The translations under genes were made by a program, and so were the position numbers. A stretch of DNA of 64,000 bases from IMG/VR virus record IMGVR_UViG_3300011008_000999. One strand, given 5' to 3'. Origin of the DNA: a virus. Its lineage: Duplodnaviria > Caudoviricetes. The notes below the pieces were generated by a model that was given only the letters and a program-made list of their open reading frames with translations, did no database searches and was not told where the DNA came from. Below, piece by piece: positions 44,093 through 63,417 of this stretch. Numbering within the stretch: position 1 is the first letter of the stretch; each line of letters begins with the position of its first letter.

Positions 44093-44260
44093 TTATACTT
44101 CTTCCAGTTATCTTGACACTCCCCATGCCTAAAGGCAGGGGATTCTTGTTTCAGCCACTACTGCGTTCCTAACAAGTAACCTTGTTGGCTCGTCTTACAC
44201 AATGTCCACAAGCGTAAATTCCCGTATGCCCTACGGTATTTTTATATGTTAGGCTACTGA
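44093..44260 (-). ncRNA. Predicted TnpB omega/reRNA scaffold plus guide
   Basis: Structured right end downstream of tnpB; guide would be flanking GATAACTGGAAGAAGTATAA; 5-prime boundary approximate. Confidence 0.65.
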
Positions 44261-45415
44261 AAGCCCTTTGTTTAAGATGTTTAGGCTTGCATTAGTGTCT
44301 CTATCGTGCTTTGTATGGCATTTAGGACACTCCCATTCTCTAACAGAGAGGTTCTTTACAAGTGGATTTTTATATCCACAACAGCTACATGTTTGACTAC
44401 TAGGATACATGGTCGGAACTTTAATTATTTCATTTCCATACCAAGTGGCTTTGTATTCAAGCATTGTAAAGAATTTAGACCATGAGCAGCTTGCTATGTG
44501 TTGCGCAAGCTTATGGTTGCGCACCATCCCCTTAATATTTAAGTCCTCTATACAGATAGTTTGGTTTTCGCTAACAAGTATAGTTGACTGTTTTTGAAGG
44601 AAATCGTTGCGCTGATTAGTTATCTTCTCATGGACTTTAGCTACTTTAACACGCTGTTTATTGCGATTATTAGAACTTTTCTGCTTACGAGAAAGCCTGC
44701 GTTGTTCTCTGATAAGTTTACGCATAGATTTCTCTAAATACTTAGGGTTGTTGACAATATTGCCGTTGCTGTCGGAGTAAAATTCTTTAATACCGACATC
44801 AATGCCAATCACGCCGCCTGCATTTGGTCGATATTCGGGTTCAAAATCAACATTCAGCACTACAAAGTATTTACCTGTGGGAGTGTGTTCTATCGTAGCA
44901 TTATTGATACGTCCCACTTTCATAGACTGTTTGACTTTGACATATCCAAGCTTCGGGAGCTTAATATAATTCCCGACTATGCGAATGTTATCACCTTGGT
45001 TAATGGTCCTGTAGGACTGATGATTATTATGCTTACTCTTGAACTGCGGATGTCTTGCACGTTTCTCAAAGAAATTTTTAAATCCACGGTCTAAATCTCT
45101 CAAAGATTGTTGAAGTGCAATAGAATCAACAACTTTCAAAAAAGCAAAATCATCAGACCTTTTTAATTCCGTAAGCATAGCAGATGTTTGATTGTATCCT
45201 ATTTTTTGACCATTAACGTAGGCATTATTACGCATAGCAAGACCTTTGTTGTAGATGAGTCTGCAACAACCAAGTGTTTGATTTATTAAGTTTTGCTGCT
45301 CTTTATTAGGATATATCCTAAACTTAACACCTTTATTCATTGGCTAATCCTTTACATATTGGCTATTGTCGCTTATATCCCCATAGCTAAAGCTAGGGGT
45401 TTTACGCTCGTCTTG
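44113..45415 (-). mobile_element. IS200/IS605-family non-autonomous element (TnpB only, IS1341-like)
   Basis: Left-end hairpin CCCCTAGCTTTAGCTATGGGG just after TTAT; right-end hairpin CCCCTGCCTTTAGGCATGGGG ending GTGTCAA; no tnpA. Confidence 0.9.
44249..45340 (-). CDS. tnpB: RNA-guided endonuclease TnpB
   Basis: KFRIYPN HTH; RuvC GIDVG, IEDL, DRDTNA; Zn ribbon CSCCG/CPKC. Confidence 0.96.
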   Translation of the reverse strand: MNKGVKFRIYPNKEQQNLINQTLGCCRLIYNKGLAMRNNAYVNGQKIGYNQTSAMLTELKRSDDFAFLKVVDSIALQQSLRDLDRGFKNFFEKRARHPQFKSKHNNHQSYRTINQGDNIRIVGNYIKLPKLGYVKVKQSMKVGRINNATIEHTPTGKYFVVLNVDFEPEYRPNAGGVIGIDVGIKEFYSDSNGNIVNNPKYLEKSMRKLIREQRRLSRKQKSSNNRNKQRVKVAKVHEKITNQRNDFLQKQSTILVSENQTICIEDLNIKGMVRNHKLAQHIASCSWSKFFTMLEYKATWYGNEIIKVPTMYPSSQTCSCCGYKNPLVKNLSVREWECPKCHTKHDRDTNASLNILNKGLSVA

Positions 45416-47774: not shown

Positions 47775-47890
47775 TAGAGCGAGTTGGATTCGAACCAACG
47801 ATTGGCTGTTTCCCTTGAATTAGGTAGCGGTTAAAATCACAAAAATGATTCATTTTTATGACAGCTGCCTTCCCACTTGGCTATCGCTCT
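47775..47890 (-). ncRNA. tRNA-like RNA with a 51-nt anticodon loop carrying the shared 25-nt motif
   Basis: Acceptor AGAGCGA/TCGCTCT, D arm GCC..GGC, stem GCTGT/ACAGC, T arm GTTGG-TTCGAAT-CCAAC. Confidence 0.8.
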
Positions 47891-47892
47891 AA

Positions 47893-47965
47893 CTGGGGTA
47901 GCGGGACTCGAACCCACAAATAACGGAATCAAAATCCGTTGCCTTAACCATTTGGCGATACCCCA
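47893..47965 (-). tRNA. tRNA-Gln(TTG)
   Basis: Cloverleaf; ACGGA-TT TTG AT-TCCGT. Confidence 0.93.
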
Positions 47966-48405
47966 ATATAATATCACGTTACGTCTAACGTTAACTACGT
48001 ATCCGATTTTCATATATCAACTATACGTTTCATTGATATACTAGATTGACCTTTTTACGTCCGTCGACAACCATTAAGGAAGGTATTGTTCAATCACTCC
48101 TCGAACCTGTACGGGCACCACCCCGTGGTCTGTTCATATCACGCCTCTGGTTATTACTGCAACCTACACAGTTCTCTCTCGATCCATCTGCTTGAGGCAC
48201 TAATTTAAGGTTCCACATACTTTACAGAGCTTTTCCCATTACTCCGACCTTCTGCTTGGGTCTAACGTTATATCCTGTATAGATGAAAGGTGGTTTAATC
48301 CATTCACCGAGCTAATAGTCAACATTTCGTATAACTAATCGCTTCTGCTACCATACAGAATCGTATCCTACGGCCATCTTTTTGGTAAAGGTTCAGGCGA
48401 CCTTA
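47966..48405 (-). ncRNA. Candidate large structured ncRNA (about 440 nt)
   Basis: ORF-free, GC-elevated, several hairpins, lies between tRNA-His and tRNA-Gln. Confidence 0.5.
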
Positions 48406-48923: not shown

Positions 48924-49114
48924 TAATCTATAAGAGCTACTAACTTATAGACAATTGAGAACGATTACCGTTTCTGTGTCGTTAAAGTATATATCATTTC
49001 AACTCTAACTGGTACTGTGTCCGGGGCTATTCTCGGTTCGGTAGACTTATGCCGTGACTATTTTCATAATATGGCTCATCATTTCTGACTGTCTACTCAG
49101 CTTTTGTCATTATC

Positions 49115-61669: not shown

Positions 61670-61804
61670 TAGAGATGGTAGGAATCGAACCTACAATTCT
61701 ACACTATATACACATACATTCGACTTACTAGTATATCAAATATATGTTTTTGATGTATATAGAACGAGATCACATCCGGCGTCTTCCTATTCCGCCACAT
61801 CTCT
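61670..61804 (-). ncRNA. tRNA-like RNA (Leu-type D arm) with long insertion replacing the anticodon arm
   Basis: AGAGATG/CATCTCT, GCG-GAATAGGAAGA-CGC, GTAGG-TTCGATT-CCTAC, inner CTATATACA/TGTATATAG. Confidence 0.7.
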
Positions 61805-63009: not shown

Positions 63010-63132
63010 GAAGGATGGTAGGACTCGAACCTACAGTGTACCGGCTCCCTAAGCATTAGAATTTTGGTTGCTGTCTTTATCACGAAAATGATAGTGTCAA
63101 AACGGCGCGTCTGCCAATTCCGCCACATCCTT
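63010..63132 (-). ncRNA. tRNA-like RNA with 48-nt motif-bearing insertion in the anticodon stem
   Basis: AAGGATG/CATCCTT, GCG-GAATTGGCAGA-CGC, GTAGG-TTCGAGT-CCTAC; motif at 63068-63092. Confidence 0.8.
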
Positions 63133-63135
63133 CAA

Positions 63136-63259
63136 CGACTGAGGAAGGAATCGAACCTTCACCTTTTCCGTGACAGGGAAATTTATTTAAGTTTGTTTGC
63201 TGTCTAAATCACGGTGATGATTCTGAAATATAAATATGCTTCCATTACACCACTCGGCC
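63136..63259 (-). ncRNA. tRNA-Asp(GTC)-like RNA with 53-nt motif-bearing insertion between D arm and anticodon arm
   Basis: Intact arm TTTCC-CT GTC AC-GGAAA, G73; insertion 63182-63234; motif at 63197-63221. Confidence 0.8.
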
Positions 63260-63303: not shown

Positions 63304-63417
63304 TTGCAGGAAATGGAATCGAACCATTGTCTCGTCCTATATGTGTGGAATATAAGATAGCTGTTAAAATCACGAAAATGATTCATTTTACGCGCTCTAC
63401 CACTAAGCTATCCTGCG
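63304..63417 (-). ncRNA. tRNA-like RNA with motif-bearing insertion and initiator-like C1:A72 acceptor
   Basis: CGCAGGA/TCCTGCA, GCTT..GAGC, AATGG-TTCGATT-CCATT; motif at 63358-63382. Confidence 0.8.

What the first reader, a model, noticed from the sequence alone, without database searches (positions are those of the whole stretch)
47775..47890. Fourth, distant copy of the motif in another tRNA body
Seen: 15 kb from the main cluster and 2 nt downstream of tRNA-Gln, a tRNA-like gene with perfect acceptor, D, T and anticodon stems has a 51-nt loop containing ATCAT-TTTT-GTGAT-TTTA-ACCGCTA (47825-47849). It shares the longer context AAAATGAATCATTTTYGTGATTTTAAC.GCTA with the 63304 copy although the tRNA bodies differ. 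Inference: the insert moves or is homogenised independently of its scaffold.
Basis: partly seen in the sequence, partly recalled or inferred. Interest (0 to 1): 0.75.

Follow-up and report, generated by a model that had tools for sequence, protein, structure and literature searches.

The report
tRNA-shaped phage RNA with protein handle
A giant gut or rumen phage has a gene shaped like a cysteine tRNA whose anticodon is replaced by a small conserved hairpin "handle"; that handle looks recently copied from another gene of the same phage, and in many other phages it lies beside a Ro60-like RNA-binding protein gene that this phage has lost.

Summary
Window 47890-47775 (minus strand) is a 116-nt tRNA-like gene (Rfam tRNA, 50 bits). 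A 51-nt stretch between the anticodon-stem strands carries the hairpin AUCAU-UUUU-GUGAU followed by ACCGCUA.

The body is of the tRNA-Cys type, but it has no anticodon and has A73 instead of U73. No single deletion restores a normal anticodon loop, so it is probably neither a decoding tRNA nor an intron-bearing one.

The insert belongs to a widespread "7-bp helix + ACAGCAA" handle that matched no Rfam family. I found 82 distinct copies with a covarying helix. All 10 phage records tested that carry such tRNAs encode a DUF2828 protein, whose model matches Ro60 best. In 44 bacterial genome loci, mostly Lachnospiraceae, ACAGCAA piles up just upstream of that gene. Felix O1 and Mycobacterium phage Miley16 show the same pairing.

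This phage lost the protein gene. An IS200/IS605 element replaces it, leaving 25 codons.

The body is 88% identical to its ortholog in a 394-kb relative, but the insert only 55%. The insert matches a different tRNA-like gene of this genome at 30 of 32 positions.

Earlier agents of this scan reported the same RNA family on other DNA. Function is inferred, not shown.

The parts
47775..47890 (-). T1: a 116-nt tRNA-shaped RNA gene. It comprises the acceptor stem, D arm, a 5-bp closing ('anticodon') stem, the handle module, the T arm and discriminator A.
   Evidence: Rfam RF00005 at 50.1 bits. Sequence read. The ortholog in G001 shows compensatory changes in the acceptor and T stems.
47861..47881 (-). 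D arm (GCCAAGUGGGAAGGC), A26, and the 5' strand GCUGU of the closing stem. This is a tRNA-Cys-type sequence.
   Evidence: The 21-mer AGCCAAGTGGNAAGGCAGCTGT hits about 45 ordinary tRNA-Cys(GCA) genes and about 8 tRNA-Gln genes in metagenomes. One of them (L144) also shares ACAGC-CAAUC-G.
47834..47851 (-). Handle helix P2: GAAUCAU-UUUU-GUGAUUU, 7 bp ending in a U.G pair, with a 4-nt loop.
   Evidence: Aligned with 81 other distinct copies. Six of the 7 pairs change on both sides and the top U.G pair is invariant.
47825..47831 (-). ACCGCUA, the local version of the conserved single-stranded ACAGCAA element, 3 nt after the helix.
   Evidence: In alignment A2 the C, G, C and final A are invariant. 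CCGC also occurs in 2 other copies, and U at position 5 occurs only in T1 and T2.
47825..47856 (-). A 32-nt tract that is 30/32 identical to the insert of T2 (63304-63417). It appears to have been copied between genes.
   Evidence: The ortholog T1o has a different sequence here.
47811..47817 (-). CAAGGGA, a recurrent NNAGGGA element just before the 3' strand of the closing stem.
   Evidence: The same element occurs in T1o (UGAGGGA), in T3 (UUAGGGA), and in L033, L058, L243, L210 and others. Position 33 is not U in T1.
47805..47809 (-). The 3' strand ACAGC of the closing stem.
   Evidence: Pairs 5/5 with GCUGU.
47775..47799 (-). T arm (GUUGG-UUCGAAU-CCAAC), acceptor 3' strand UCGCUCU and discriminator A.
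   Evidence: tRNA-Cys would need U73.
47892..47966 (-). tRNA-Gln(UUG), immediately upstream and presumably in the same transcript.
   Evidence: ARAGORN and Rfam. The same order is seen in G001.
63304..63417 (-). T2: a tRNA-like gene whose handle module is the likely donor (or sister) of T1's module.
   Evidence: Rfam tRNA at 44.5 bits. Its module is 98% conserved in G001.
63010..63259 (-). T4 (63259-63136) and T3 (63132-63010): two further handle-bearing tRNA-like genes.
   Evidence: Deleting the module leaves an Asp arm (CUGUCAC) in T4 and a Pro-like arm (UUAGGGA) in T3 (read from the sequence).

Best explanation
T1 is not a translating tRNA. It is a tRNA-shaped small RNA built on a tRNA-Cys-type body. 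The anticodon region is occupied by a 'handle' module: a 7-bp helix closed by a tetraloop, then 3 nt, then ACAGCAA (here ACCGCUA), followed by an AGGGA element.

Inferred maturation: the RNA is transcribed with tRNA-His, a structured RNA and tRNA-Gln. Because its acceptor and T arms are intact, RNase P, RNase Z and CCA addition should cut it out like a tRNA.

In related phages the handle is most likely the docking site for a phage Ro60-like ring protein (DUF2828+DUF7788). That would give a Y-RNA-like particle presenting tRNA parts. Its likely role is in tRNA surveillance, repair or decoy function; this is speculation.

In this phage the protein gene was destroyed when an IS200/IS605 element replaced it. 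T1 is therefore either an orphan or depends on a copy supplied by the host or a prophage.

The handle module evolves separately from its scaffold. T1's module is a recent copy of, or conversion from, the T2 module in the same genome.
For: Shown:
- tRNA fold with compensatory changes against the ortholog.
- The body matches tRNA-Cys genes, but it has A73 and lacks the UGCA of the loop.
- For T1 and T1o no single deletion gives a 5-bp stem plus a 7-nt loop with U33 and R37.
- The handle helix covaries in 82 distinct copies. Its invariant U.G pair exists only on this strand, so the structure acts at the RNA level.
- DUF2828 is present in 10 of 10 handle-tRNA phage records, 0 of 4 control phage records and 0 of 14 reference genomes.
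- In 44 bacterial loci ACAGCAA occurs 78 times in the 500 nt upstream of DUF2828 on the gene strand and 0 times on the other strand.
- The same pairing is seen in Felix O1 and Mycobacterium phage Miley16.
- For the DUF2828 model, all 13 PDB hits at E <= 0.001 are Ro60/Rsr/TROVE over the full length.
- The own genome has no DUF2828 or TROVE gene. Only the last 25 codons remain (76% identity), next to TnpA+TnpB, which replace the gene and the body of a neighbouring handle RNA.
- Module swap.
- One constant scaffold (AGUGAGG...C73) carries anticodons GCU, UUG, UAU or UUU in different (pro)phage loci, which fits display rather than decoding.
Against: - No RNA or binding data exist. The protein-handle link rests on co-occurrence and adjacency only.
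- The structure model is mediocre (pLDDT 68, TM about 0.4).
- Many family members regain a textbook anticodon arm when the module is deleted (Asp CUGUCAC, Thr CUUGUAA, His UUGUGGA), and some keep matching identity elements. Excision cannot be excluded for those.
- The 82 copies were selected for pairing, so the percentage of paired cells is inflated.
- RNAfold prefers a 12-bp alternative hairpin in T1 over the 7-bp handle helix.
- Only one relative was available for the ortholog comparison.
Confidence: 0.6

Rival explanations
1. The module is a new kind of protein-dependent tRNA intron. The handle marks it for cutting, and an RtcB-type ligase rejoins the exons to give a working tRNA.
For: A single contiguous deletion of 42-53 nt, starting at nt 26-30, restores perfect 5-bp stems and cognate loops in many family members (and further examples). 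This includes a bona fide tRNA-Thr body. RtcB is encoded in 2 of 5 phage records tested, and 10 of 14 control genomes have it.
Against: - T1, T1o and T2 give no canonical loop: position 33 is A or G, or the loop is 9 nt.
- An intact stem is equally expected if the arm is retained.
- No endonuclease or ligase is conserved next to DUF2828 in 44 loci.
- The same handle closes free-standing RNAs that have no exons.
- One scaffold with a fixed C73 carries several anticodons.
- The anticodon AGG is not a normal bacterial Pro anticodon (general knowledge).
Confidence: 0.17
2. T1 is a decaying relic. After the DUF2828 gene was lost the handle RNAs have no function here, and T1 is a pseudogene kept only by short divergence time.
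For: - The partner gene was replaced by IS200/IS605 and the neighbouring handle RNA was truncated.
- T1's motif is ACCGCUA, matching 5 of the 7 consensus positions of ACAGCAA.
- An alternative 12-bp fold competes with the handle helix.
Against: - All stems of the tRNA body are intact.
- CCGC variants also occur in genomes that keep the protein (L059, L232).
- T2-T4 and three of the five free-standing handle RNAs in the genome still pair end to end; the other two are one truncated by the IS and one with only a 5-bp closing stem.
- Lachnospiraceae genomes often encode DUF2828, probably on prophages (my inference), and could supply it.
Confidence: 0.18
3. The insert is the DNA footprint of a small transposable element (for example an IS200/IS605-type hairpin end) that landed in tRNA genes.
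For: The genome carries IS200/IS605 elements, one of them 2.4 kb from T1. IS200/IS605 ends are DNA hairpins (general knowledge).
Against: - The helix keeps an invariant U.G pair and frequent G.U pairs, which are mismatches on the other DNA strand.
- The orientation always follows the tRNA strand.
- ACAGCAA shows a total strand bias upstream of DUF2828.
- The same handle is found in Felix O1 and a mycobacteriophage, beside their DUF2828 genes.
Confidence: 0.03

Closest known systems
YrlA-type bacterial and mycobacteriophage Y RNAs bound by Ro60/Rsr (Chen et al. 2014, PMC4201824; Rfam RF02553)
   Same: - A small RNA with a tRNA-like domain (acceptor, D and T arms).
- The anticodon side is replaced by the protein-binding helix.
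- It is encoded next to a Ro60-fold protein, often beside tRNA or RNA-repair genes.
- M. smegmatis YrlA is cut by RNase P and receives CCA. That gives the same topology as T1, except that T1's helix is closed by a loop.
   Different: - The binding motif differs: GNCGAAN0-1G in YrlA against a helix plus ACAGCAA here.
- There is no RF02553 hit at E <= 1.
- The protein is DUF2828+DUF7788, not a Pfam TROVE family member.
- T1 is not circularly permuted.
- Many family members keep a full anticodon arm.
- In this genome the protein gene is gone.
Class I RNAs of dictyostelid amoebae (Kjellin et al. 2021, PMC7919456; Rfam RF01414)
   Same: A short stem joins the 5' and 3' ends, the 5' G is conserved, and an unpaired 11-nt motif follows the 5' strand. 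Its conserved positions (T3, C6, C9, A10, A11) fit nnUnACAGCAA, and the rest of the RNA is variable. The exact Dictyostelium motif, CCUUACAGCAA, is from my memory.
   Different: These are eukaryotic RNAs. Their known binder is an RRM protein (Rnp1A/CIBP). They have no tRNA parts. There is no RF01414 hit here. Whether the likeness reflects common descent is untested.
Archaeal non-canonical tRNA introns (bulge-helix-bulge) and split or permuted tRNAs
   Same: Short inserts (tens of nt) at varied positions of the tRNA, including the 5' strand of the anticodon stem. Permuted and unpermuted layouts both occur. RtcB is the joining enzyme in those systems (general knowledge).
   Different: - By eye I recognised no bulge-helix-bulge motif around T1.
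- I did not search for a splicing-endonuclease gene (EndA, PF01974). None of the recurring ORF clusters next to DUF2828 in 44 loci lay outside the gene itself.
- A conserved internal helix plus ACAGCAA is not a feature of those introns.
- The host is bacterial: the phage carries a tmRNA.

Membership tests
tRNA (Rfam RF00005), as a decoding tRNA | Cloverleaf with acceptor, D and T arms | tested here: met
   50.1 bits against a gathering score of 29.
tRNA (Rfam RF00005), as a decoding tRNA | 7-nt anticodon loop with U33 and a purine at 37, and identity elements that fit the anticodon | tested here: not met
   The loop is 51 nt. The body is Cys-type but has A73 and no GCA. No deletion gives U33/R37.
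Intron-containing tRNA (archaeal/eukaryal BHB type, or bacterial group I type) | Removing one contiguous insert yields a canonical anticodon arm | tested here: not met
   Zero solutions for T1 and for its ortholog T1o. The criterion is met for T4 and for many other family members.
Intron-containing tRNA (archaeal/eukaryal BHB type, or bacterial group I type) | Group I ribozyme core, or a BHB motif together with a splicing endonuclease | tested here: inconclusive
   At 44-51 nt the insert is far too small for a group I intron, and no intron family was hit in Rfam. The BHB motif was judged by eye only. No endonuclease gene search was run.
YrlA Y RNA (RF02553) | Match to the covariance model and the GNCGAAN0-1G motif | tested here: not met
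   No hit at E <= 1 in the window or in the handle-RNA region of the genome. The motif is absent from T1.
YrlA Y RNA (RF02553) | Encoded within a few kb of a Ro60 ortholog on the same strand | tested here: not met
   The genome has no TROVE or DUF2828 gene, only a 25-codon relic about 23.6 kb away. Other RNAs carrying this handle do lie beside the Ro60-fold DUF2828 gene in G001 and in 44 bacterial loci; T1's own ortholog was not placed relative to it.
Helix + ACAGCAA handle RNAs linked to DUF2828 (no published name found; reported before by this scan) | 6-7-bp helix ending in CAU/GUG with a U.G pair, then 2-4 nt, then ACAGCAA | tested here: met
   T1 aligns without gaps to 81 other copies. The motif is ACCGCUA, 5 of 7 positions, with all four invariant positions kept.
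Helix + ACAGCAA handle RNAs linked to DUF2828 (no published name found; reported before by this scan) | DUF2828 protein encoded in the same genome | tested here: not met
   Lost here through an IS200/IS605 replacement. Present in 10 of 10 other records.
Helix + ACAGCAA handle RNAs linked to DUF2828 (no published name found; reported before by this scan) | Physical binding of the handle by the protein | not testable with these tools
   No RNA-protein prediction or binding data were available.

The most novel reading that the evidence does not exclude
The handle marks a previously unknown protein-dependent tRNA splicing or tRNA-repair pathway in bacteria and phages. The Ro60-like DUF2828 ring would grip the helix-ACAGCAA module, and the module would be cut out and the tRNA rejoined by RtcB-type ligation, or nuclease-damaged anticodon arms would be repaired in the same way. 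Handle-bearing genes would then be conditional tRNAs whose supply the phage controls. Copies without an anticodon, such as T1, would act as regulators or decoys of that machinery.
Probability: 0.15. Interest if true: 0.9.

Novelty: new variant of a known kind. Interest (0 to 1): 0.66.

Why it matters
Ro60 and its Y RNAs are a classic but poorly understood RNA-surveillance particle. Here a distant Ro60-like protein, present in at least 710 deposited phage genomes, is tied to a matching RNA family. Those genomes include Felix O1, Listeria, Staphylococcus, Campylobacter and mycobacterial phages.

I found no Rfam family or paper for these RNAs, and many of them are currently called tRNAs or missed altogether. 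This copy adds three points:
- The handle is a portable module that is exchanged between different tRNA bodies.
- It can replace the anticodon outright, giving a body without decoding capacity.
- A natural 'knock-out' phage exists in which an insertion sequence removed the protein gene while nine RNA genes remain.

Because Felix O1 and mycobacteriophages carry the same pairing, the function can be tested directly in laboratory strains. The finding also warns that 'intron-containing tRNA' calls in phage genomes may be this RNA.

Tried and rejected
- Suppressor-tRNA idea. The insert contains UCA and CUA triplets, but the genome reads well in code 11: 81% is covered by ORFs of at least 120 aa, and no region is rescued specifically by TAG or TGA read-through.
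- ARAGORN's intron placements (Pro-UGG and others) are arbitrary and give A33.
- Small self-cleaving ribozymes and box C/D guide RNAs were considered from the sequence. There is no Rfam support.
- More T1 orthologs were sought with two body patterns in viral contigs and one in metagenomes. Only the same 394-kb relative was found, so polarity rests on one comparison.
- The PDB sequence search with the DUF2828 protein gave nothing. Only the fold search did.
- A literature search on DUF2828 found 5 papers, none on phages or function.
- RtcB is not a constant companion: 2 of 5 records.
- No conserved protein neighbour of DUF2828 was found.
- Thermodynamic folding of T1o is not better than shuffles (z = -0.9). 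Single-sequence folding is uninformative here.
- Handle decay after loss of the protein could not be shown. CCGC variants also occur where the protein is present.

Full report
**What is there**

The window is the minus strand of positions 154971-218970 of a complete 331,944-bp phage genome with direct terminal repeats. Its G+C content is 33.5%. ARAGORN finds about 40 tRNA genes and a tmRNA in the genome.

At window 47890-47775 (minus strand), Rfam's tRNA model scores 50.1 bits with a 50-nt insertion in the anticodon loop. Default ARAGORN misses the gene. I call this gene T1.

Read as RNA it is:
- AGAGCGA (acceptor 5' strand), UA
- GCCA-AGUGGGA-AGGC (D arm), A
- GCUGU (closing stem, 5' strand)
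- a 51-nt stretch
- ACAGC (closing stem, 3' strand), CAAUC
- GUUGG-UUCGAAU-CCAAC (T arm)
- UCGCUCU (acceptor 3' strand), A

The 51 nt are: C AUAAAAAU [GAAUCAU-UUUU-GUGAUUU] UAA CCGCUA CCUAAUU CAAGGGA A.

Only the D stem falls short of 'perfect' (3 bp plus an A.A mismatch). The hairpin motif is far above chance: 5 occurrences against 0.28 expected in the window. The longer pattern occurs 4 times in the genome, all in tRNA-like genes, and 0 times in the reversed control.

**What the body is**

A 21-nt pattern from the D arm and stem finds about 45 ordinary tRNA-Cys(GCA) genes and about 8 tRNA-Gln genes in metagenomes. Some of the Cys genes also share the 3' strand and variable loop, ACAGC-CAAUC-G.

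T1 is therefore a Cys-type body. C32 and A37/A38 are still present, but U33 to A36 is replaced by 48 nt. The discriminator is A, not the U73 that CysRS needs (general knowledge).

For T1 and its ortholog, no single contiguous deletion gives a 5-bp stem with a 7-nt loop carrying U33 and a purine at 37. The genome reads normally in code 11, so no suppressor tRNA is needed. T1 is thus very unlikely to decode.

**The insert is a widespread RNA handle**

Scanning viral contigs for the hairpin placed upstream of a T loop gave 88 loci. These yield 50 distinct tRNA-like genes with perfect acceptor stems.

Relaxing the helix sequence and adding bacterial loci gave 82 distinct copies that align without gaps. 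The pattern is a 7-bp helix, a tetraloop, 3 nt, then CAGCAA.
- Six of the 7 pairs change on both sides (107 cells against 27 in shuffles).
- The top U.G pair is invariant, and the C, G, C and last A of the motif are invariant.
- Caveat: I selected the set for pairing, so the percentage of paired cells is inflated. The variety of pair types is not an artefact of that selection.
- U.G pairs exist only on this strand, so the structure acts in RNA, not DNA.

The same handle also closes free-standing RNAs whose two ends form the helix (5' GUGAC... and ...GUCAU 3'). The own genome has five of these at about 144.9-145.6 kb and 149.7 kb. No Rfam family covers any of these RNAs.

**The partner protein**

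All 10 phage records tested that carry handle-tRNAs encode a DUF2828+DUF7788 protein of about 500 aa. This holds even for fragments of 25-34 kb. None of 4 control phage records and none of 14 reference genomes do.

In 44 bacterial genome loci, mostly Lachnospiraceae, ACAGCAA occurs 78 times in the 500 nt upstream of the gene on its own strand. It occurs 0 times on the other strand, and 0-4 times in most 250-nt bins elsewhere (7-12 in the next two bins upstream). No protein-coding neighbour is conserved there.

An AlphaFold model of the relative's protein (pLDDT 68) has Ro60, Rsr or TROVE structures as all 13 PDB hits at E <= 0.001, aligned over the full length. Sequence search alone finds nothing in the PDB.

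Homologs occur in 710 deposited phage genomes. They are annotated variously as 'RNA-binding protein', 'Ro-like RNA binding protein', 'vWFA protein' or hypothetical. In Salmonella phage Felix O1 (gp42) and Mycobacterium phage Miley16 (gp55), ACAGCAA RNAs lie directly downstream of the gene, in unannotated DNA or among the tRNAs.

The published YrlA Y RNAs belong to TROVE-annotated Ro60 orthologs and use a different motif, GNCGAAN0-1G (PMC4201824). This system is therefore related in kind but distinct. Binding of the handle by the protein is inferred from this linkage and has not been shown.

**This phage has lost the protein**

No DUF2828 or TROVE gene is present. tblastn finds only the last 25 codons, at genome position 147436-147510, with 76% identity to the protein of the 394-kb relative G001.

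Synteny shows what happened. The 1.6 kb that hold the gene in G001 are replaced here by 1.8 kb encoding IS200-type TnpA and IS605-type TnpB. The replacement begins right after the ACAGCAA of the neighbouring handle RNA, which is thereby truncated.

T1-T4 and the free-standing handle RNAs are thus orphans, unless a host or prophage copy serves them. Lachnospiraceae genomes often have one.

**Insert and body have different histories**

G001 keeps T1 in the same His / structured RNA / Gln context.

| Gene pair (this phage vs G001) | Scaffold identity | Module identity |
|---|---|---|
| T1 | 88% | 55% |
| T2 | 99% | 98% |
| T3 | 95% | 82% |
| T4 | 92% | 92% |

The T1 scaffold comparison includes compensatory changes in the acceptor and T stems. 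The 55% for the T1 module is the background level between unrelated copies.

T1's module matches T2's at 30 of 32 positions in its first 32 nt (81-83% overall). A blastn hit of the G001 T2 region onto T1 shows the same thing. In G001, by my own count over the 27-nt core of the sequences, T1o and T3 share 24 of 27 positions (the matrix gives 0.68 overall). That is a weaker hint of the same process there.

Across the family, homologous modules sit in Cys-like, Asp, Pro-like, Thr, His and Tyr-type bodies. They lie at positions 26/27, inside the 5' strand of the anticodon stem, or in the loop. The mechanism (recombination between copies, or an RNA route) is open. The phage does encode a UvsX-like recombinase.

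**Intron or retained arm?**

For many members, removing one block of 42-53 nt restores a perfect stem and a cognate loop: Asp CUGUCAC in T4, Thr CUUGUAA or CUGGUAA, His UUGUGGA, Tyr CUGUAAA. This keeps a splicing model alive.

However:
- An intact stem is also needed if the arm is simply retained.
- T1, T1o and T2 give no canonical loop.
- One constant scaffold with C73 carries GCU, UUG, UAU or UUU anticodons in different (pro)phage loci.
- The handle also closes RNAs that have no exons.
- No nuclease or ligase gene travels with the protein.

I therefore favour a Y-RNA-like particle that displays tRNA parts (0.6) over splicing (about 0.17) and over a functionless relic in this particular phage (about 0.18).

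**Relation to earlier notes of this scan**

Other agents had already described the helix+ACAGCAA handle and its DUF2828 link on other DNA and on the main cluster of this window. I used these as leads and re-derived the handle, the co-occurrence, the Ro60-like fold and the loss of the protein independently.

New here are:
- the Cys-type identity of T1's body;
- the module swap between T1 and T2;
- the IS200/IS605 replacement with the 25-codon relic;
- the recurrent AGGGA element.

I also located the same pairing in two cultured phages, Felix O1 and Miley16; whether earlier agents had noted these I did not check.

Noticed in passing
window 44249-45340 (-): An IS605-type TnpB gene (OrfB_IS605, Cas12f1-like TNB and HTH domains; 363 aa) lies 2.4 kb from T1. 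A second IS200/IS605 element (TnpA+TnpB), outside the window at genome position 145744-147290, replaced the DUF2828 gene.
   Followed up: partly
window 47969-48404 (-): An ORF-free stretch of about 430 nt between tRNA-His and tRNA-Gln. A similar stretch sits in the same place in the 394-kb relative (L037). It matches no Rfam family.
   Followed up: no
window 61670-61804 (-): A fifth tRNA-like gene (Rfam tRNA 34 bits, 135 nt, Leu-type D arm) with a long A/U-rich insert that has neither the hairpin nor ACAGCAA.
   Followed up: no
L037 reverse strand about 1406-1575 (G001): In the relative, about 170 nt lie between tRNA-Gln and the T1 ortholog. This element has paired ends (GUCGGG/CCCGAC) and a T-arm-like hairpin. 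In this phage it is absent and T1 abuts tRNA-Gln.
   Followed up: no
window 47775-47890 (-), T1 positions 29-55: T1's differences from the T2 module (an extra A, and C to U in the tetraloop) both extend an alternative 12-bp hairpin, GUCAUAAAAAUG/CAUUUUUGUGAU. RNAfold prefers it to the handle helix, and it would open the closing stem.
   Followed up: partly
L027 reverse strand 280-351 (G001): The relative has a tRNA with anticodon UUA (ochre-suppressor type). At roughly the corresponding place ARAGORN calls a tRNA with anticodon AUA in this genome (G000 154719-154792, just outside the window).
   Followed up: no
L255 5176-5260 (G000 about 149675-149760): A free-standing handle RNA: GGGACG-UUC-ACAGCAA, then a Cys-type anticodon arm UUUGA-CUGCAAC-UCAAA, a 3-bp T arm and CGUCC. 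It is in effect a tRNA-Cys mimic whose acceptor stem is the handle helix, the counterpart of T1, which has the Cys body but no anticodon.
   Followed up: partly
window 49066-49095 (-): A sigma-70-like promoter match (TAGACA-18-TATTAT, 10/12) lies upstream of the His / RNA / Gln / T1 cluster. No terminator-like site was found between 47400 and 49038, so T1 may be co-transcribed with the lipoprotein ORF that starts 22 nt after it.
   Followed up: no
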